A DNA stretch of 64,000 nt from Candidatus Multivorans sp. (lineage in GTDB: Bacteria; Acidobacteriota; Thermoanaerobaculia; Multivoradales; Multivoraceae): positions 4,032,001-4,096,000 of the forward strand of contig OZ251997.1 of NCBI GenBank assembly GCA_965247095.1, read 5' to 3'. Position numbers and translations under genes: made by a program. This document shows positions 865 to 6,957 of this stretch, piece by piece. Numbering within the stretch: the stretch's first letter is position 1; each line of letters starts with the position of its first letter. The notes under the pieces were generated by a model, which did not search any database, was not told the origin of the DNA, and saw nothing but the letters and a program-made list of their open reading frames with translations.

Positions 865-1166
865 TCTGCGCCGCCGGGCGTCGCCTTGACCTGGGGCACC
901 AGAAGGAAGCGGTCGAGGGATGCGGGTGCGTTGTCCAGAAAGTCGTCGAGGAGCGGTCGGCCTCCCGCCGGCACGTCGTTGGCGGCGGCATCCTGTTCCG
1001 GGTCGGTGTCGTCCGACGGTGCGGCGCCCGCGTCGAACGTACGAAGCTGGTCGATGTAATCGACGATCTCGGAGAGCTGGGACGCGAACTTCGCTTCCTC
1101 ACCGGCCGAGAGTTGTAGCCTCGCCAGTTCGGCGATCCGCCGAAGCTCCTCGACATCCAGAGACAC
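861..1166 (-). CDS. gatC: Asp/Glu-tRNA amidotransferase subunit C
   Basis: 101 aa; 'ELRRIAELARLQLS...IVDYIDQL...FLDNAP...FLLVPQV' GatC pattern; directly upstream of gatA. Confidence 0.92.
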   Translation of the reverse strand: MSLDVEELRRIAELARLQLSAGEEAKFASQLSEIVDYIDQLRTFDAGAAPSDDTDPEQDAAANDVPAGGRPLLDDFLDNAPASLDRFLLVPQVKATPGGAE

Positions 1167-1347
1167 TTCGCTATAAGTCTAGCATTCCCCGCGATTGCGC
1201 GGCAGAAACCGGGTGCTGCTGCCCTTCTGGCCGGATGCGGCGCAAAACGCCGGCCCTCGGGAGTTTTACCGCGTTGCGGGGAGCCAAGGCACGGAGCGCA
1301 CGCTTGCATGGAACAAACCCCTCGTCCTGGCCGGCCCTTCGTGCCTA

Positions 1348-1372
1348 ATGCGGGCGAGACGCCCGCGTTCCC
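1348..1372. repeat. REP-like palindrome, family A (GGGAACGCGGGCGTCTCGCCCGCAT, reverse orientation)
   Basis: ATGCGGGCGAGACGCCCGCGTTCCC is the exact reverse complement of 43787-43811; related copies at 41704-41727 and 43736-43762. Confidence 0.8.
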
Positions 1373-1408
1373 CAGGGCGGACCGAAGTAGCGACCACGCT
1401 CTTACGGT

Positions 1409-1460
1409 GTTCCCTGCGCGACAGCGCAGCGATACCGCTGTGGGTACTTGCATGGAACAA
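1409..1460. repeat. 52-bp palindromic direct repeat, copy 1 (left of IS110)
   Basis: GTTCCCTGCGCGACAGCGCAGCGATACCGCTGTGGGTACTTGCATGGAACAA, identical to 3052-3103; internal IRs GTTCCCTGC/GCATGGAAC and CAGCG/CGCTG. Confidence 0.95.
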
Positions 1461-1500
1461 ACTGATGCTGGTTCCTTTTGGGTGAAGCGGATTCCGGGAT

Positions 1501-2820
1501 TCAGGCGGCTTGTTCAACGGCCACGAGCTTCAGGTTGAGGCGTCTGGCCTGTCGCTGGAGGTTCTTGAGTTGGCGTTCGCGCCGGACGGCCTCCATTTCG
1601 GCGAGGTCGCGTTCGACGTACTCTTCGCCGTGCGTGAGCATGGCGAAGATCATGCGGCCGAGCTGGTGGGCGGTTGCCTTGACCGCCCTCGCGGTGTCCA
1701 TGCGGTGCATTCGGCGTCGGTGGGATGCGCCGATGGCGGTCTTGCTGTTGCGGGCGGTGGTTGCGGCCATTCGCAGCGCCTGGCCGACCCGGTTGGTGTG
1801 TTGTCTGGGCTTGCCTTTGAGGCGTTTGTCGCCGCTGATGTTGGTCGGCGGAGCCAGACACAGCCACGAGCAGAAGTTGCCCTGCGAGGGAAACCGGGAC
1901 AGGTCCGGGCCGATCTCAGCGGCAAACGTCAGCGCCGTTTCGACGCCAATGGTCGGGATGGCGACCAGGTCCACTCCGAGCATGCGGTGCAGCCGCTGGC
2001 GCAGGGCGTGCTCGCGGACCTTCGAGTCCGGCGGCGAAGCCTCCCCTGCGCCGTCCTCAGCCAGCTTGTCGAGTTCGGCGTCGATGCGCTCCTCGCACAT
2101 CTCGATCTGGCCCTGCAGCATGTCGTGGCGCGCCAGCGCCTGCCTGAGGGCGAACAGATGCTCGTCGCGCCAATTGCCCTCGAGACTCGCTGCGATCGTC
2201 GCCGCGCTCGCCTTGCACCGGCCGTCACGGTGGCGGGCCAGCACCTCGCCGTCCCGCTCGCCGGCGACGATCGCGCGCACGATGAGCTGGCCGGTCTTGC
2301 CCATGATGTCGCTGAGCACGTTGTCCAACTGCACGTTCATCTGCAGGAGCGCCTTCTGAACGTGCTGCACCGAACGGCTGCGGTCGCGGATCAACTGCCC
2401 GCGCTGACGCGTATAGGAACGCAGCGGGCACAGCGCGTCCGGCGCACGAAACGCGCTCCGCAGCAACCCGTAGCTCATCAACTGCCGGATCCACTGACAG
2501 TCCAACACGTCGCTCTTGCGACCGCTCACCTGCTTCGTCGCCTTCGGATTCACCAGGTAGACCTCGAAACCCGCACGGTCGAGCACCTCGAACACCGGGA
2601 TCCAGTACACGCCCGTGGACTCCAACGCCACCTGCCGCACGCCGTGCGCCTCAAGCCACGACGCCATCGCCTCAAGATCGCGTGTGAACGACCCGAAGCT
2701 GCACACCGGGCGCTCGAAACGCGACGGGTCCACCGCCACGTAGTGCTTGCGCTTGCCCACGTCGATCCCCGCACAATCCGGGTGAACGACCTCCAGACTC
2801 TCCGCCTTCCTGCTCGCCAT
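1501..2820 (-). CDS. IS110-family transposase/recombinase (DEDD RuvC-like + Transposase_20)
   Basis: GIDVGK, ALESTG and KSDVLD supply the DEDD residues; C-terminal 'SWLCLAPPTNISG' carries the catalytic Ser; AGGAGG 8 nt before the ATG at 2820. Confidence 0.96.
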   Translation of the reverse strand: MASRKAESLEVVHPDCAGIDVGKRKHYVAVDPSRFERPVCSFGSFTRDLEAMASWLEAHGVRQVALESTGVYWIPVFEVLDRAGFEVYLVNPKATKQVSGRKSDVLDCQWIRQLMSYGLLRSAFRAPDALCPLRSYTRQRGQLIRDRSRSVQHVQKALLQMNVQLDNVLSDIMGKTGQLIVRAIVAGERDGEVLARHRDGRCKASAATIAASLEGNWRDEHLFALRQALARHDMLQGQIEMCEERIDAELDKLAEDGAGEASPPDSKVREHALRQRLHRMLGVDLVAIPTIGVETALTFAAEIGPDLSRFPSQGNFCSWLCLAPPTNISGDKRLKGKPRQHTNRVGQALRMAATTARNSKTAIGASHRRRMHRMDTARAVKATAHQLGRMIFAMLTHGEEYVERDLAEMEAVRRERQLKNLQRQARRLNLKLVAVEQAA

Positions 2821-2847
2821 CTCCAGCACCTCCTGTACGATTCAAAT

Positions 2848-3010
2848 GGTCGCGCTGGACAGAGACCGCGGCGGAAACGTCACTCTTGCATACGGGGTCG
2901 CGGCAAAAGCTGCGCCGCCAGCGTCAGAACGCCGATCACGGTCCGGGCCAAACTTGCATTGCGGGTGCGAACACACCAGTGCTTCGACGGCCTCGCTGCC
3001 CAGCGCGACC
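2848..3010 (-). ncRNA. Candidate bridge RNA in the IS110 left end
   Basis: Perfect 11-bp IR GGTCGCGCTGG (2848-2858) / CCAGCGCGACC (3000-3010) closes the region; two similar internal motifs (minus strand ACCCGCAATGCAAG and ACCCCGTATGCAAG); TTCTGC-N17-TAGAGT promoter-like element just upstream. Location matches known IS110 bridge RNAs. Confidence 0.6.
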
Positions 3011-3051
3011 CAACTCTACGCATCCTGCAACGACCGCAGAATCCACCACCC

Positions 3052-3103
3052 GTTCCCTGCGCGACAGCGCAGCGATACCGCTGTGGGTACTTGCATGGAA
3101 CAA
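3052..3103. repeat. 52-bp palindromic direct repeat, copy 2 (right of IS110)
   Basis: Identical to 1409-1460; followed after 5 nt by a degenerate partial third copy GTTCCCTGTGCGTCAGCGCGGCG (3109-3131). Confidence 0.95.
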
Positions 3104-3151
3104 TCCCTGTTCCCTGTGCGTCAGCGCGGCGCGGACGCCGCGACTCGACTC

Positions 3152-5227
3152 CTAGGCCTGCGTCAGGCTGGCGGCTTCGAGGTTCTCGATCGCCTGCAGG
3201 GTGAAAGTCTCGCCATCCATCTCGACCTCGGCGCCGGGCTCGGAGCCGAGCAGCTTGACGGCGAGGTCGGACTCGTACGAGATGATTCCGCGCTCGGGTG
3301 CGCTTTCCCAGGGGCCGAGGATGGCCAGAGTGCGCTGTTCGCCCCTTTCCGACTCGAAGACCGCCCGGTTGCCGATGCGGAGCTTGTCGCAGGCCGCGGC
3401 GGCGATGTCAATCGGCGTGGAGCGCTGCAGATCCTGCTGCAGTTGCGTGGCTATCGAAGTCAGATACTCGTGGCGTTGACGGGCCGCCTTGTACTCGAAG
3501 TTCTCGCGCAGGTCGCCGAGTGCGCGCGCTTCTTCGATCGCTCTGCGATTGGCTGGCAGCTCCTTCCCGGCCAGCTCCCGCAGTCTCTCGCGCTTTTCTG
3601 CGATTGAGGCCGGCAGGGCGTAGAGATCGCTGTGGTCGGTGTCCTGGTCGGCCACCAGATCGGGGAACTTCAGGTGCAGTGCCGCGAGCAGAGGCTCACG
3701 CCGGTAGTCCTCGAGCGCCGCGTGACGGATCGAGACGTCGGCTTGCCGGGCCTCTTCCAGGGTCAGTTCGGGCAGCAGCTTCGGGACCGTGCCGCCGGAG
3801 TCGAAGAGGGCCTTGAGGCGGAGTCGGAACGGGGCGAAGGCCTCGTGCCTCAGGGAGTGGATCAACAGGTTGAGGAGGCGGCTCTGCCGCCCGGCGCGGA
3901 GTGCCGGCTCGGCCGCGGCGCCCTCCGCGAGCCAGGTGAAGGCCGCTGGCGTGCGATGCGGCTGAACTTGGGCGCGCGCGGCGCAGCGGCGCAGCAGATC
4001 CTCGTCGATCAGGCCGGCGATCGTGCCGATCGCCTTCGTGTCGGTCTCCAGGAGGAAACGCTTCTCAAGCACTTCGCGCCAGTCGCTGCGACAGTCGGGC
4101 AGGAGGGTGTATGCCTGCTCGCGTGGACCGCGCTGCTCGATCGACGAGAAGAAGTCCAACGGATCCTCCAGGTTGGCCAGGAGTTCCTCCGCGGGCCATG
4201 AGGGCTCGGCGCCGAACCGCTCCAGTGCGCAGCGAATCTCGAACGCGAGCGCCGGCTGCTTACCGGTCAGGCGCTGGCCCAGGTCGTCCAGGAAGGCCGC
4301 CATCCGATCCCGCAGCTCCTGCGACTGATTCGCCGCTCGCCGCAGCAGGGGGACCTTGGCGCGGTTCGGCGCCCGCCTGAACTCCTGCCAGAGCGAACTC
4401 TCGGCGTCGGTCGCTTCGACCCAACGATAGGTCTGCCGGGATCCGCCGGACGACAGGACCTGCGCCTGCTTCCGCGCGCTGGTCCACCAACTCGACCAGC
4501 GTCGCTCGGGGATGATGCCGACCACGATGGCCCGCACCTCGGCCCCCGTCAGCGGGCGGTCGTAACTCTTGAGCGTCTGCTCAAGCAGCTTTGGCGGCTT
4601 CAACGTCGCCAGTTGCTCCGGTTCTTCGAGCTTCCGTCGCAGCACATGCTTCGGGGGCAGCAGGGTGAGCATCTTGCCGGCGGCCCGGAAGCCGACCGCG
4701 ACTCCCTTCGCCTTCTCGAGGTCGACCTTGAAGGTCTGCAGCGGCATGTTCACCTGGGCGATGCGGCCGACTCCTCGGGCCGTCATCTCGACGATGTCGC
4801 CGCGCTCGAATGCCATCAGGTTGCGGAGCCGGTCCACCTTGTCCCAGAGCTTGAGCGTCTCCTGCCGTCCCCGGTCCAGGTCCAGTTCGTGGAGCAACTC
4901 GTTCAGATCGGACTCGCGGTCCCGGTAGAGCTCGTGCAGAGTCTCGAGAACGGTCTCATAGACCTGGCCGCTGCGCAGATACCTGCCGCCGGCGCCGCGG
5001 ATCAGGTCCAGGCGGTCCGCCCACAGGCCGCGCTCCTGCAGTTGGTCGTCGAGCAGTTCGAGCAGTGTGCCTACACGCTCCGCTTCGCCGAGTCGAACCA
5101 GCCCACTGGTGATGGCGAGGAAGGCGTCGACCGCGATCGCTCCCTCGACCGCGGCCAGCCACTCTGCCTCGACTGCGTCGATGTCACCGCTGGCGAGGCT
5201 GTCTTGAATGCGTTGCGGGATCCTCAT
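3152..5227 (-). CDS. Long GreA/GreB-family transcription elongation factor (~690 aa, large N-terminal extension)
   Basis: C-terminus 'ELPANRRAIEEARALGDLRENFEYKAAR...ILGPWES...ISYES' is the Gre domain; start re-called at MRIPQR (5227). Confidence 0.88.
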   Translation of the reverse strand: MRIPQRIQDSLASGDIDAVEAEWLAAVEGAIAVDAFLAITSGLVRLGEAERVGTLLELLDDQLQERGLWADRLDLIRGAGGRYLRSGQVYETVLETLHELYRDRESDLNELLHELDLDRGRQETLKLWDKVDRLRNLMAFERGDIVEMTARGVGRIAQVNMPLQTFKVDLEKAKGVAVGFRAAGKMLTLLPPKHVLRRKLEEPEQLATLKPPKLLEQTLKSYDRPLTGAEVRAIVVGIIPERRWSSWWTSARKQAQVLSSGGSRQTYRWVEATDAESSLWQEFRRAPNRAKVPLLRRAANQSQELRDRMAAFLDDLGQRLTGKQPALAFEIRCALERFGAEPSWPAEELLANLEDPLDFFSSIEQRGPREQAYTLLPDCRSDWREVLEKRFLLETDTKAIGTIAGLIDEDLLRRCAARAQVQPHRTPAAFTWLAEGAAAEPALRAGRQSRLLNLLIHSLRHEAFAPFRLRLKALFDSGGTVPKLLPELTLEEARQADVSIRHAALEDYRREPLLAALHLKFPDLVADQDTDHSDLYALPASIAEKRERLRELAGKELPANRRAIEEARALGDLRENFEYKAARQRHEYLTSIATQLQQDLQRSTPIDIAAAACDKLRIGNRAVFESERGEQRTLAILGPWESAPERGIISYESDLAVKLLGSEPGAEVEMDGETFTLQAIENLEAASLTQA

Positions 5228-5380
5228 GCGGTCGCGGTCGCGGCGGTGCAAGCGGCGCGTGTGCGGATTGATGATGGTATCAAGCCGGGAAGGAGTTGGG
5301 GACGGCCTCGAAGCGGTGCGAGACTCGGAGTTGGCCGAGTCCCCACCGCACCAGGAGCTTGGGCCGCCGAACCCAGTCCG

Positions 5381-6957
5381 AGCGTAGTCCAATCCTGAAA
5401 TGAGCGTGAACGGGACCGTCATGGAGAGTCGAGTCGGGTCGGTCTCGGGGTAGTTCTGGAGCGGCAGACGGTTCTGCACCGTCTGCCGCCTGCGGTAGCG
5501 CCCGCTGCGAGGCCGCGGCGGGTTACTGGCGTTGTGTTCCGGCCTGGGCCGGTGGTGGTGGGCGGTGTATGGCATCGGGCTGCGCGGTCTGCGGTTCAGG
5601 CGCTCCGGCGCCGGTGGGGATCGGACTCCCGGTCGATGAGTTCAAAGAGTCTGGCACGAGCCAGCTTGAGGGCGCTCGCGGCGTCGAGGTCGCTCGTGGC
5701 GCCGGCCTGGTCTTGGAGGGCGGCGATGGTGACGCCGGGCCTGAGGTACCGCTCCGCGTCCGGCAGGGACTTGAGCTTCTCGAACGGCGTCATGGTGTCC
5801 TGGTAGCGGTAGCGTTTCCTGGTGCGGCCCTTCCTGTCGGTGACCTCGGTGGGAAACAGGCACGGGCGATGGAAGTTGAGGAAGGGGGTGAGCACATCGC
5901 GTGCGAAGACGTTGATCTCGCGGGCGAAGAGCTTGGGGATGTGCCGGTATCCGAACTGGCGCCGGATCACGTTGCCGTTCTTGCTCTCGACCAGGGCGTT
6001 GTCGTTGGTGTGCCGGCTGCGGGACTTGGTGAACTCGGGGACGTGCAGTTGGTTGAGCATCTCGGCGACCTTGCGGTTGATGTACTCGGAGCCGTTGTCG
6101 GCGTGGAAGCCCAGCACCTTGAAGGGGCAGGACTCGATGAGCTCCTTGAGCACCGGCACGAGACACCGTTGGGAGATGGCCCGTACCGTCGCCACGTGCT
6201 CCCACTGCAACACCTCGTCCACGAGGTTGATGTGGTACACGCCCTTCTCGCCGTCTTTGTCCCCCTGATGCACCGTGTCCACCCGCAGGTAGCCCGGCTT
6301 CCCCTCCGGCTGGGGCTTGCGTCGTTCCCCGATCCCGACCGCGGTCGACCGCGTCTTCTTGAACGTCGTCCGGCGCCGCTGGTAGGTGGTCGACTTGCGC
6401 AGGTTGTAGAACTGGCCGTTCGAGATCACAGCCAGACGCTCGAAGCGCTCGTCGCCGTACACCTCGAACTGGCGCCGCATCACCGCCCGCGTGCTGTGAC
6501 CGCACATCTGGCCCAGTGCCGCGTCGACCTCGGCGAGAAGGCCGATGTCGGCCTTCGTGTAACGCCGCCCGAATGCGTGAGGCGGCGCACCGCGGCGGTC
6601 CTCGATGCGGCCCGTCTCCCGGTGCTGCCGGATCAGCCGCGTCAACTGCGACTCGGACTTCCCGGTCATCTTCATCAGGTAGCGCCGAATCATGCCCTTG
6701 TCGCGCCTCACAAGCGCCCGGTAGCGGAACCTGACCAGCGTCTCACGGATGAACTCGTACGTCGATCCGCGGTCCACCACCACGAAGTCCACCGCCTCGT
6801 TGCCGGCCACGAAACTGCGGACCTCACAAAGAGTCTGAAGTCGGCCTGTCTGGAGCGTCACGATCATCCTCCGATGATCCCCGATACCGGCGCTTCACGC
6901 TCACTTCTCGCTGGATTCACGCACCCCGCTCACGCTCACTTCTCGCTGGACAGCTCT
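5381..6957 (-). mobile_element. IS element with rve/DDE transposase (unclassified, ISNCY-like); 5-bp TSD GTCCG
   Basis: GTCCG at 5376-5380 and 6958-6962; imperfect terminal IRs AGCGTAGTCCAATCCTGAAATGAGCGTGA vs rc AGAGCTGTCCAGCGAGAAGTGAGCGTGA; 21-bp repeat TCACGCTCACTTCTCGCTGGA at 6895-6915 and 6930-6950. Confidence 0.85.
5596..6867 (-). CDS. DDE integrase-core (rve) transposase
   Basis: 'PGYLRVDTVHQGD', 'FHADNGSEYIN', 'NDNALVESKNG' form the D-D-E triad; 423 aa intact. Confidence 0.92.
   Translation of the reverse strand: MIVTLQTGRLQTLCEVRSFVAGNEAVDFVVVDRGSTYEFIRETLVRFRYRALVRRDKGMIRRYLMKMTGKSESQLTRLIRQHRETGRIEDRRGAPPHAFGRRYTKADIGLLAEVDAALGQMCGHSTRAVMRRQFEVYGDERFERLAVISNGQFYNLRKSTTYQRRRTTFKKTRSTAVGIGERRKPQPEGKPGYLRVDTVHQGDKDGEKGVYHINLVDEVLQWEHVATVRAISQRCLVPVLKELIESCPFKVLGFHADNGSEYINRKVAEMLNQLHVPEFTKSRSRHTNDNALVESKNGNVIRRQFGYRHIPKLFAREINVFARDVLTPFLNFHRPCLFPTEVTDRKGRTRKRYRYQDTMTPFEKLKSLPDAERYLRPGVTIAALQDQAGATSDLDAASALKLARARLFELIDRESDPHRRRSA

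What the first reader, a model, noticed from the sequence alone, without database searches (positions are those of the whole stretch)
2830..3049. Structured non-coding left end of the IS110: candidate bridge RNA with a long-range closing stem
Seen: on the minus strand, TTCTGC-N17-TAGAGT is followed within a few nt by GGTCGCGCTGG, which pairs perfectly with CCAGCGCGACC ~140 nt downstream; the helix extends imperfectly inward. Two near-duplicate motifs lie inside (ACCCGCAATGCAAG, ACCCCGTATGCAAG), and ATGCAAGT also occurs in the flanking 52-mer. Short matches to the inferred junction exist (CTGACGCTGG vs CTGATGCTGG at 1462-1471; CACTGGTG vs CACTGATG), but I found no perfect IS621-style guides. 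Known: IS110 left ends encode bispecific bridge RNAs with two similar loops. Inference: a bridge RNA whose loops are enclosed by one outer stem, possibly a different architecture for this longer (~440 aa) recombinase type.
Basis: partly seen in the sequence, partly recalled or inferred. Interest (0 to 1): 0.75.

Follow-up and report, generated by a model that had tools for sequence, protein, structure and literature searches.

The report
Bridge RNA of an IS110-family element
The structured stretch upstream of this transposase gene is very likely a genuine guide ("bridge") RNA that tells the mobile element where to insert, built on a somewhat different plan from the well-studied IS621 example.

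Summary

- **Structure:** on 30 distinct relatives, 92% of cells pair against 35-45% when partners are slid. 26 of 42 pairs show compensatory changes (0 of 500 shuffles reach this).
- **Fold:** an outer stem closes a three-way junction that carries two internal loops.
- **Guides:** the two ATGCAAG motifs are the guides. Loop 1 copies the left flank and loop 2 copies the element's right end. The cognate 7-mer lies in the expected place in 62 of 77 and 64 of 83 loci, against 1.2% and 1.8% for non-cognate guides.
- **Right-target guide:** a short one (4 nt plus the core G) lies 5' of the loop hairpin.
- **Right-donor guide:** none was found.
- **Guide order:** it is the reverse of IS621 and ISEc21 and matches that reported for IS1111-type seekRNAs, although the RNA lies upstream of a long (439-442 aa) transposase.
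- **Target:** here both guides are the same, so the element targets right ends of its own family.

Expression and activity are not shown. I rate it a new variant of a known kind, of moderate interest.

The parts
1447..3089 (-). Whole IS110-family element, 1,643 bp (left end starts at 3089 with TACCC; right end finishes at 1447 with ...TTGTTCCATGCAAG).
   Evidence: A second copy in the same genome is 99% identical. Ends were fixed by 14 copies of an 86%-identity relative, whose flanks diverge exactly at these positions. The per-locus table gives lengths of mostly 1,590-1,665 bp, excluding rows with doubtful ends.
3090..3096 (-). Left target half-site plus core (ATGCAAG, core AG), the last 7 nt of a 59-nt miniature element (3090-3148).
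   Evidence: It is identical to loop-1 guide 2959-2953. In relatives this flank changes together with the guide.
3052..3089 (-). Left-end terminus: 38 nt holding two overlapping hairpins and the left subterminal inverted repeat GGGAAC (3057-3052).
   Evidence: There are 9 exact copies in the genome, 2 of them in the IS copies. The repeat covaries with the right-end GTTCC in relatives.
3013..3041 (-). Candidate internal promoter: TTCTGC (3041-3036), 17 nt, TAGAGT (3018-3013).
   Evidence: A TAnAnn-like box sits a few nt upstream of the outer stem in many relatives (by eye in alignment A1). It is below the scan threshold. It is not shown to be a promoter.
2848..3010 (-). Bridge RNA body (~163 nt), from outer-stem 5' arm to 3' arm.
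   Evidence: Covariance model R1 scores 155.3 bits here.
2996..3010 (-). P1 outer stem, 5' arm (GGUCGCGCUGGGCAG); it pairs with 2862-2848.
   Evidence: Of the 13 pairs counted, 11 show changes on both sides among 30 relatives, and 86.6% of cells are paired.
2848..2862 (-). P1 outer stem, 3' arm (CUGUCCAGCGCGACC).
   Evidence: (pair I25).
2946..2992 (-). Target-binding arm: P2 (GGCC 2992-2989 with GGCC 2949-2946) enclosing an internal loop and hairpin P3 (2978-2962).
   Evidence: P2 is 100% paired, with 2 of 4 pairs changed on both sides. P3 is 97.2% paired.
2980..2988 (-). Loop-1 5' strand. GUCGAAG is the candidate right-target guide (only the last 4 nt, GAAG at 2985-2982, are supported). It is followed by the near-invariant C2981 (pairs the core G) and A2980.
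   Evidence: Complementarity to right flank +1..+4 is 2.55 of 4 against a null of 1.74 +/- 0.13 (0 of 5000 permutations; 44 lineages, 76 insertions). The C becomes U in two core-AA lineages (L093, L094; table).
2952..2959 (-). Loop-1 3' strand: the left-target guide AUGCAAG (2959-2953). U2952 follows it and often equals the first base of the element.
   Evidence: Alignment columns 51-57 match the left flank at 0.91-1.00, against a null of 0.36-0.63. The base after the core equals the element's first base at 0.85, against a null of 0.43. That second signal does not hold in the 57%-identity clade (by eye).
2863..2944 (-). Donor-binding arm: P6 (GGACCG 2944-2939 with CGGUCU 2868-2863) and P4 (GGCG 2933-2930 with CGCC 2873-2870), enclosing an internal loop and hairpin P5 (2920-2893).
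   Evidence: P6 is 83.9% paired, with 4 of 6 pairs changed on both sides. P4 is 98.3% paired. P5 is 95.2% paired, with 6 of 9 pairs changed on both sides.
2885..2891 (-). Loop-2 3' strand: left-donor guide AUGCAAG, identical to the element's last 7 nt.
   Evidence: Alignment columns 119-125 match the right end at 0.90-0.97, against a null of 0.36-0.79. The cognate 7-mer is found downstream in 64 of 83 loci, against 19 of 1079 for non-cognate guides.
2874..2884 (-). Conserved AGUGAC... segment after the donor guide; its role is unknown.
   Evidence: It is conserved as nnUGAn in almost all relatives. No covariation with donor DNA was found.
2921..2929 (-). Loop-2 5' strand (UUCUGACGC); it is not a detectable right-donor guide.
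   Evidence: There is no complementarity to the element's first bases at offsets 0-5 (293 to 2540 of 3000 permutations reach the observed value). It is nearly absent in a distant clade.
1501..2829 (-). Recombinase gene. The listed ORF has 442 aa from a GTG start. The likely start is the ATG at 2820 (439 aa), 8 nt after AGGAGG (2834-2829).
   Evidence: Pfam PF01548 and PF02371. NCBIfam NF033542 'IS110 family RNA-guided transposase', 259 bits against a cut-off of 140. Database relatives are 439 aa.
1447..1460 (-). Right-end terminus TTGTTCCATGCAAG: the right subterminal repeat GTTCC (1458-1454), then the left-donor half-site plus core, ATGCAAG (1453-1447).
1461..1500 (-). 40 nt between the stop codon and the right-end terminus; unrelated in the two otherwise 99%-identical copies.

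Best explanation
Window 2848-3010 (minus strand) encodes the bridge RNA of a 1,643-bp IS110-family element (3089 down to 1447).

**Fold.** The RNA folds into a three-way junction. An outer stem (P1) closes two arms, and each arm carries an internal loop capped by a hairpin.

**Target loop.** The 3' strand AUGCAAG has the sequence of the top strand of the left target half-site plus the AG core, so it would pair with the bottom strand. [quoted passage not shown]

**Donor loop.** The 3' strand AUGCAAG matches the element's own last 7 bases in the same way.

**Mechanism, by analogy.** With IS621, ISEc21 and ISEc11 as models, the recombinase-RNA complex would bring the circularised element (right end joined to left end) and the target together and exchange strands at the AG core.

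**Consequence here.** Target guide and donor guide are the same. The preferred target is therefore the right end (..CCATGCAAG) of members of its own family, including miniature derivatives. This builds head-to-tail arrays like the one seen in the window.

**Shown:** the conserved structure, and the covariation of both 3'-strand guides and of a short right-target guide with the DNA.

**Inferred:** transcription, binding to the recombinase, and the recombination chemistry.
For: **1. Family context.**
- The adjacent gene has both IS110 domains.
- It passes NCBIfam's 'IS110 family RNA-guided transposase' model.
- It is a distant relative of IS621 (E 5.4e-9).

**2. Structure.**
- On 30 distinct relatives, 92.0% of 1248 cells pair, against 34.7-44.7% with partners slid by 1-3 columns.
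- 26 of 42 pairs have changes on both sides (shuffles 15.2 +/- 2.1).
- 0 of 500 shuffles reach any of the five measures.
- Invariant U-G pairs in P3 and P5 (30 of 30 each) fix the strand.

**3. Element ends.** Fourteen copies of an 86%-identity relative in one genome diverge exactly before TGTCC... and after ...CATGCAAG.

**4. Guide and DNA covariation.**
- That relative has CUAGGAG in loop 1 and CTAGGAG as its left flank, while loop 2 and the right end stay ATGCAAG.
- Across all loci parsed, the cognate loop-1 7-mer is found exactly in the 125 nt upstream of the RNA in 62 of 77 loci, against 30 of 2464 non-cognate tries.
- The cognate loop-2 7-mer is found in the 400-nt window after the gene in 64 of 83 loci, against 19 of 1079.
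- There are 29 distinct target guides and 13 distinct donor guides.

**5. Right-target guide.** Complementarity at +1..+4 is 2.55 of 4 against 1.74 +/- 0.13, with 0 of 5000 permutations reaching it.

**6. Core.** It is AG in nearly all lineages. It is AA in a few, where both guides end in AA and, in L093 and L094, the core-pairing C is a U.

**7. Reach of the model.** R1 finds the RNA only at the two IS copies in this genome. It also finds it upstream of 44-49%-identity recombinases on plasmids.
Against: - No RNA ends, strand or abundance are shown. Metatranscriptome contigs cover 2780-3020, 2863-3020 and 2823-3103, but contigs cannot show transcription and DNA carry-over is possible.
- No sigma-70 consensus promoter passes the scan. 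[quoted passage not shown]
- No right-donor guide was found, so one of the four canonical pairings is missing or lies elsewhere.
- The window element's own right-target guide (ideal right flank CTTC) fits its two observed right flanks (TACC, CCTG) poorly: 4 of 7 pairs each, with wobble allowed.
- The left- and right-end positions used were located by searching for the guide, so that test is circular. One search is the non-circular control.
- Relatives are not independent, so permutation figures overstate significance.
Confidence: 0.88

Rival explanations
1. The structure is only a cis-acting leader of the recombinase mRNA (translation or stability control) and does not guide DNA recognition.
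For: It lies directly upstream of the ribosome-binding site; the outer stem ends 13 nt before AGGAGG. No separate RNA has been shown.
Against: A leader has no reason to carry two 7-nt segments that change in step with the left flank and the right end in 29 and 13 distinct versions.
Confidence: 0.04
2. The conserved motifs act as DNA: subterminal binding sites for the recombinase in the left end. The apparent helices are by-products.
For: The element does have DNA-level features in its left end: hairpins and a subterminal inverted repeat that covaries with the right end.
Against: Compensatory changes occur in six helices, with strand-specific U-G/G-U pairs that would be A-C on the other strand. 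This is the signature of a folded single strand read in the gene's direction. The guide segments sit in the unpaired loops.
Confidence: 0.05
3. The resemblance is chance in G+C-rich DNA.
For: The single-sequence fold has z of only -1.87, and Rfam has no match.
Against: The covariance model scores 35 to 166 bits across the matches, apart from two cut fragments (25.8 and 27.6 bits).
Confidence: 0.01

Closest known systems
IS621 bridge RNA (Durrant et al. 2024, PMC11208160; Hiraizumi et al. 2024, PMC11208158; passages read)
   Same: It is encoded in the left end upstream of a DEDD/Tnp recombinase. It has two internal loops, one for the target and one for the donor. The left guides have the sequence of the top strand including a 2-nt core. 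The natural right-target guide is short (4 bp in IS621, about 4 nt here).
   Different: [quoted passage not shown] Here there is no 5' stem-loop, and an outer stem closes both arms.
- The IS621 order in each loop is stem, left guide, stem-loop, right guide, stem. Here the left guide lies 3' of the hairpin and the right-target guide 5' of it.
- The core is CT in IS621 and AG here.
- IS621 has a right-donor guide and handshake guides; none was detected here.
- The IS621 promoter is rebuilt at the circle junction. Here the only candidate -10 box is about 70 nt inside the left end.
- The recombinase has 326-328 aa in IS621 and 439-442 aa here, with only E 5.4e-9 similarity.
IS1111-type seekRNA (Siddiquee et al. 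2024, PMC11187229; passages read)
   Same: Guide order: the segment complementary to the top strand lies 5' of the segment complementary to the bottom strand. The element has subterminal inverted repeats.
   Different: - In IS1111-type elements the RNA lies downstream of the gene; here it lies upstream.
- Their repeats are usually 11-13 bp, with terminal extensions of 7 and 3 bp. Here the repeats are 5-8 bp, with extensions of about 32-40 bp (left) and 7 bp (right).
- Their transposases have 330-350 aa; this one has 439-442 aa.
ISEc21 seekRNA (IS110 type; same paper) and ISPpu10 bridge RNA (preprint 10.64898/2026.03.19.712850; outline and section 6 read)
   Same: The non-coding region lies upstream. 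ISPpu10 also lacks the 5' stem-loop and targets intergenic repeats.
   Different: - ISEc21 has the opposite guide order.
- Its recombinase is barely alignable with this one (pairwise E 0.058).
- ISPpu10 uses a CT core and a junction promoter.
Survey of 86 bridge-RNA covariance models (preprint 10.64898/2026.10.21.760802; passages and section 8 read)
   Same: It states that many models deviate visibly from the IS621 structure yet covary with target and donor.
   Different: I could not see its supplementary figures or models, so I cannot tell whether this architecture is among them.

Membership tests
Bridge RNA of IS110-family elements | Encoded in a non-coding end of an element with a DEDD (PF01548) plus Tnp (PF02371) recombinase | tested here: met
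   The RNA lies 2848-3010, inside the element ends 3089 and 1447.
Bridge RNA of IS110-family elements | Conserved secondary structure with two internal loops | tested here: met
   92.0% of cells pair; 26 of 42 pairs are compensatory; 0 of 500 shuffles reach the observed values.
Bridge RNA of IS110-family elements | One loop covaries with the left target flank plus core | tested here: met
   62 of 77 cognate loci against 30 of 2464 non-cognate tries; 29 distinct guides.
Bridge RNA of IS110-family elements | The same loop is complementary to the right target flank | tested here: met
   At +1..+4 only: 2.55 of 4 against 1.74 +/- 0.13, 0 of 5000 permutations. No signal at +5..+7. The fit is poor for the window copy itself.
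Bridge RNA of IS110-family elements | Second loop covaries with the element's right end (left donor) plus core | tested here: met
   64 of 83 against 19 of 1079; 13 distinct guides.
Bridge RNA of IS110-family elements | Second loop is complementary to the element's left end (right donor) | tested here: not met
   No signal at offsets 0-5, in the column scan or near the subterminal repeat. Donor left ends vary little, so power is low.
Bridge RNA of IS110-family elements | RNA is transcribed and bound by the recombinase; it is needed for recombination | not testable with these tools
   Only contigs from RNA libraries are available.
IS621-type architecture | 5' stem-loop, then two separate stem-loops; order stem, left guide, stem-loop, right guide, stem | tested here: not met
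   An outer stem closes both arms, and the left guides lie 3' of the hairpins, against the description in PMC11208158.
IS621-type architecture | [quoted passage not shown] | tested here: inconclusive
   The scan found no site in the linear sequence. The junction was inspected by eye only.
IS1111-type (seekRNA) elements | Non-coding region downstream of the transposase gene | tested here: not met
   About 270 nt lie upstream and 54 nt downstream of the gene.
IS1111-type (seekRNA) elements | Top-strand complement lies 5' of the bottom-strand match | tested here: met
   against the text of PMC11187229.
IS1111-type (seekRNA) elements | Subterminal inverted repeats, usually 11-13 bp; transposase of 330-350 aa | tested here: not met
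   Repeats of 5-8 bp that covary. The transposase has 439-442 aa.

The most novel reading that the evidence does not exclude
This clade may represent a third, undescribed plan of IS110-family guide RNA. Its features would be:
- left-end encoded, beside a long recombinase;
- a closed three-way junction;
- IS1111-type guide polarity;
- only three RNA-read half-sites (left target, short right target, left donor), with the element's left end recognised by protein through a hairpin and a subterminal repeat rather than by RNA;
- natural retargeting to the right ends of sibling elements, which builds tandem arrays and drives a family of miniature elements.
Probability: 0.3. Interest if true: 0.6.

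Novelty: new variant of a known kind. Interest (0 to 1): 0.5.

Why it matters
Bridge and seek RNAs are the basis of programmable recombinases.

- **Engineering.** Only a few orthologues (IS621/IS622, ISEc21, ISEc11, ISPpu10, ISCro4-type) have been dissected. A clade with a different fold, reversed guide order, an AG core and perhaps no RNA-read right donor would widen the design space.
- **Evolution.** It would bear on how the IS110 and IS1111 types are related. [quoted passage not shown]
- **A natural series.** The relatives form a reprogramming series of 29 target guides on one scaffold.
- **Genome biology.** An element whose target is its relatives' right end would explain the modular intergenic repeat arrays in this genome.

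Tried and rejected
- **Rfam.** There was no match at E up to 1 in 1000-3600.
It is below the scan threshold. I also looked by eye for a -35/-10 pair across the joined right-end/left-end junction and found none convincing.
CTGACGCTGG versus the right end, and CACTGGTG, are rejected as guides. Both are conserved in relatives with other ends, and the second copy has an unrelated 40 nt there.
- **Right-donor guide: loop-2 5' strand.** Compared with the element's first bases at offsets 0-5, 293, 2153, 2537, 895, 2540 and 368 of 3000 permutations reach the observed value.
- **Right-donor guide: scans.** The column-by-position scan gave only scattered z of 3-5 among about 2000 comparisons. The scan against the 18 nt before the left subterminal repeat gave a maximum z of 3.3.
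- **TGACGC resemblance.** The loop-2 5' strand resembles a left-end segment in some lineages. I dropped this because lineages such as L039, L045 and L046 break it (listing).
- **AGUGAAC and the right subterminal repeat.** Pairing between them does not covary (by eye).
- **Column scan for the right target.** With one flank per lineage it was not informative. The pooled test was used instead.
- **Transcription.** Runs X1, X2, X13 and X3 are contigs only, so they give no starts, ends or strand. Parts without cover prove nothing.
- **Placing the recombinase in the IS110 or IS1111 branch by a tree.** This was not done. The ISEc11 record was not in the collections. A plasmid search with ISEc21 listed no named IS1111-type reference among the 60 rows shown.
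- **Names for relatives.** None of the 120 listed database relatives carries an IS name. No listed plasmid hit at or above 40% identity carries one either.
- **Supplements.** These were closed. Durrant's Supplementary Table 5 and Extended Data Fig. 10, Siddiquee's Supplementary Fig. 2 and the 2026 preprint's Fig. S12 may already show this architecture.
- **Rows dropped.** Loci with truncated or interrupted elements or doubtful right ends were removed.
  - L049, L059, L063, L066, L068, L075, L082, L086, L087, L088.
  - L049, L059, L063, L066, L068, L075, L088.
  -, in addition to those: L102, L103, L106, L108, L121, L141, L144, L146, L155.
- **Rows dropped.** Thirteen loci failed the parsing pattern: L099, L100, L112, L114, L116, L117, L118, L129, L136, L137, L142, L153, L154.
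- Mis-parsed guides (for example ACCGTGA) were kept and count as misses.
Full report
**The observation**

The 11-bp perfect stem (3010-3000 with 2858-2848) extends to 15 pairs with one G-U. A perfect stem that long arose in 2 of 300 Markov resamples. The fold of the whole 220 nt is only modestly better than shuffles (z -1.87), and Rfam has no match. On its own the sequence is suggestive, not conclusive.

**The element and its ends**

- The adjacent ORF (1501-2829, minus strand) has the two IS110 domains. It passes NCBIfam's 'IS110 family RNA-guided transposase' model at 259 bits against a cut-off of 140.
- Its only solved relative is IS621, at E 5.4e-9.
- The genome holds two copies that are 99% identical from TTGTTCCATGCAAG-TACCC... 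down to the stop codon. The 40 nt after the stop are unrelated in the two copies. Both then end in TTGTTCCATGCAAG.
- A scan of species genomes gave 76 loci with relatives of 94% to 43% identity.
- Fourteen copies of an 86%-identity relative in one genome fix the ends. Left flanks diverge just before (C)TAGGAG|TGTCC..., and right flanks diverge just after ...GTTTGTTCCATGCAAG|.
- By homology the window element runs from 3089 to 1447 (1,643 bp).

On the left, 14 nt are flank and 38 nt are the element's left end. On the right, 14 nt are the element's right end and 38 nt belong to the next repeat module.

**The structure**

I aligned 30 distinct left ends (A2) and wrote a structure from the window sequence and visible covariation.

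- P1 is the outer stem.
- P2 closes a first internal loop capped by hairpin P3.
- P6 and P4 close a second loop capped by hairpin P5.

On A2, 92.0% of 1248 cells form standard pairs, against 34.7-44.7% when the 3' partners are slid by 1-3 columns. Changes on both sides occur in 26 of 42 pairs, against 15.2 +/- 2.1 in shuffles. None of 500 shuffles reaches any of the five measures. The structure was derived partly from one of these sequences, which favours it on cells paired. The compensatory counts are less exposed to that bias.

U-G pairs that never vary (30 of 30 in P3 and in P5) would be A-C on the other strand, so the folded strand is the recombinase's sense strand. RNAalifold, run independently, found P2, P3, P4 and P5 and part of P1.

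The covariance model R1 (163 positions, 42 pairs) gave these results:

| Search | Result |
|---|---|
| Own genome | The two IS copies only |
| Genomes of the same order | 6 of 151, counting the window's own |
| Loci from species genomes | 56 matches |
| Mostly metagenome loci | 65 matches |
| Recombinases of 49% and 44% identity on a Caballeronia and a Citrobacter freundii plasmid | 63 and 37 bits |

**The guides**

In the window, the 3' strand of loop 1 reads C-A-AUGCAAG-UUU and the 3' strand of loop 2 reads U-AUGCAAG-AGUGAC. The left flank ends in CCATGCAAG, and so does the element itself.

In the 86% relative, loop 1 reads CUAGGAG and the left flank is CTAGGAG, while loop 2 and the right end stay ATGCAAG. 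Across lineages the same rule holds for many other sequences:

- loop 1 with the left flank: CCAGGAG, ATGAAAG, ATTGTAG, GAGGGAG, ATTCTAG, CTCTGAG, CAAAGAG, CACGAAG, TAAGGAG and others;
- loop 2 with the right end: ATGCGAG, ATAAGAG, ATGGGAG, ATAGAAG, TTAGGAA and others.

A column-by-position scan over 33 lineages gave these identities:

| Comparison | Observed | Permuted |
|---|---|---|
| Loop-1 columns with left flank -7..-1 | 0.91-1.00 | 0.36-0.63 |
| Loop-2 columns with right end | 0.90-0.97 | 0.36-0.79 |

In that work the ends had been located by looking for the guide, so I ran a control that does not assume them.

- The cognate loop-1 7-mer occurs exactly in the 125 nt upstream of the RNA in 62 of 77 loci. 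Guides of other lineages occur there in 30 of 2464 tries (1.2%).
- The cognate loop-2 7-mer occurs in the 400-nt window after the gene in 64 of 83 loci, against 19 of 1079 (1.8%).

The core is AG almost everywhere. It is AA in L093, L094 and the Citrobacter plasmid element, where both guides also end in AA.

**The right-hand guides**

The 5' strand of loop 1 ends in a near-invariant C-A just before P3. The C is U in the core-AA lineages L093 and L094, and the A is U in two distant clades, giving CU opposite AG.

The 7 nt before it were tested against the right flank.

- With 24 lineages: 4.06 of 7 pairs against 3.26 +/- 0.21 (0 of 5000 permutations).
- With 44 lineages and 76 unique insertions: 3.90 against 3.07 +/- 0.17.
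- All of the excess lies at +1..+4 (2.55 of 4 against 1.74 +/- 0.13; 0 of 5000). None lies at +5..+7 (1866 of 5000).

The right-target guide is therefore short, as in natural IS621 (4 bp, per PMC11208160). It lies 5' of the loop hairpin. The window copy's own guide (ideal flank CTTC) fits its two right flanks poorly.

For the donor I found no right guide. The loop-2 5' strand shows nothing at offsets 0-5, the scans show nothing, and that strand is nearly absent in a distant clade. The only donor-left-end signal is that the base after the loop-1 core often equals the element's first base (0.85 against 0.43). That does not hold in the 57%-identity clade (by eye).

The left end instead carries conserved hairpins and a 5-8 bp subterminal repeat that covaries with the right end:

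| Right end | Left end |
|---|---|
| GTTCC | GGAAC |
| GTTTG | CAAAC |
| GTTAG | CTAAC |
| AGTTTCT | AGAAACT |
| GTTAC | GTAAC |

**How it most likely works**

The RNA is a bispecific guide. [quoted passage not shown] The recombinase then exchanges strands at the core between the circular element and the target.

The pairings are shown by covariation. Transcription, protein binding and chemistry are inferred from IS621, ISEc21 and ISEc11 (PMC11208160, PMC11208158, PMC11187229; passages only).

In this element the two left guides are the same. It therefore targets right ends of its own family, which fits several observations.

- The window has a head-to-tail arrangement: a 59-nt miniature element, then the IS, then a 144-nt module that starts with the IS's own 38-nt left end.
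- Two RNA copies one element apart occur in L050 and L058.
- Several lineages have target guides equal to a sibling's donor guide.

**Comparison with what is known**

- *IS621.* Its RNA has a 5' stem-loop and two separate stem-loops. Each loop has the order stem, left guide, stem-loop, right guide, stem. Here there is no 5' stem-loop, an outer stem closes both arms, and the order is reversed.
- *IS1111-type seekRNAs.* Siddiquee et al. report exactly this reversed order (top-strand complement first). Those seekRNAs lie downstream of 330-350 aa transposases in elements with 11-13 bp subterminal repeats.
- *IS110 type.* ISEc21 has the IS621 order, and the subgroup around IS110 itself has 395-455 aa transposases with upstream non-coding regions.

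This clade combines an upstream RNA and a long recombinase with IS1111-like polarity and short subterminal repeats. The paper mentions exceptions such as ISMtsp17, which has an upstream region. A 2026 preprint states that many of its 86 bridge-RNA models deviate from IS621. I could not see the supplements of any of these papers, so the architecture may already be recorded. I did not build a recombinase tree.

**Expression**

Metatranscriptome contigs near-identical to the window cover 2780-3020 (243 nt, run X1) and 2863-3020 (160 nt, run X2, same study). A relative's contig covers 2823-3103 (run X3). Most of the gene is not covered at 90% likeness. This is compatible with an abundant small RNA. 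But contigs show no ends or strand, the shared stop at 3020 may be a branch point between strains, and DNA carry-over is possible. I count it as no more than a hint.

**Verdict**

The finding is correct: this is a bridge RNA, and the outer closing stem is real. The existence of such an RNA beside an IS110-family recombinase is expected: Durrant et al. predict one in 85.7% of IS110 and 93.0% of IS1111 elements.

What is less ordinary:
- the closed three-way fold;
- the reversed guide order at the left end;
- the apparent lack of an RNA-read right donor;
- the natural series of 29 target specificities;
- the targeting of sibling right ends.

I rate it a new variant of a known kind, of moderate interest.

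Noticed in passing
window 3090-3148 (minus strand); genome-wide: A 59-nt miniature element (TCGAGTCGCGG...GGGAACAGGGATTGTTCCATGCAAG) has a left-end-like hairpin, the subterminal repeat pair GGAACA/TGTTCC and the family's right end. Its first 30 nt occur 32 times in the genome with up to 4 mismatches, and 20 of those are preceded by CTAGGAG. That is the target of the 86%-identity relative, which is not present in this genome. In the window, the TAG of that target is the stop codon of the 807-aa ORF 3152-5575.
   Followed up: partly
window 1303-1446 (minus strand); seven other places in the genome: Modules of about 97 and 144 nt begin with the IS's exact 38-nt left end and finish with TTGTTCCATGCAAG. 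There are 9 exact copies of the 38-mer, only 2 of them in the IS copies. They look like non-autonomous derivatives that the IS's RNA and recombinase could move in trans. The genome has 28 exact TTGTTCCATGCAAG sites.
   Followed up: partly
window 1461-1500 versus G000:C1 about 1057341-1057380: The 40 nt between the stop codon and the right-end terminus are unrelated in the two otherwise 99%-identical copies. Each version is unique in the genome. No explanation was found.
   Followed up: partly
L083:930-1182: In one relative the DNA encoding the target guide (GTCTAGG...AGTTTGG) is itself split by an insert of about 88 nt. The insert ends in CTTCCATGCAAG and has its own covarying repeat pair GGAAG/CTTCC. 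A family member seems to have inserted into the guide-coding copy of its own target.
   Followed up: no
L050 (990-1148 and 2871-3029), L058 (987-1150 and 2622-2782), L100: Two RNA copies lie one element-length apart, and on a Caballeronia plasmid two IS110-family transposase genes lie in tandem. These look like head-to-tail arrays of family members.
   Followed up: no
window 1468 joined to 3047 in RNA-library contigs of runs X1 and X13: Contigs join the element's last 22 nt to its first ~43 nt, with CGG between, skipping 1,578 bp. This would be an internal-deletion derivative of this very element. Only 22 letters lie on the shorter side, so confidence is low.
   Followed up: no
L099 (Citrobacter freundii IncF plasmid NZ_CP150625.1, 1340-1488 of the locus): A 44%-identity recombinase, found on 61 Citrobacter and 21 Enterobacter plasmid records, has the same RNA family upstream (37 bits). 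Its guides end in AA.
   Followed up: no
left flanks of L015-L053: The CTAGGAG target of many relatives often seems to overlap the end of the upstream gene (stop codon TAG followed by GAG). This was seen by eye and was not tested against gene calls.
   Followed up: no
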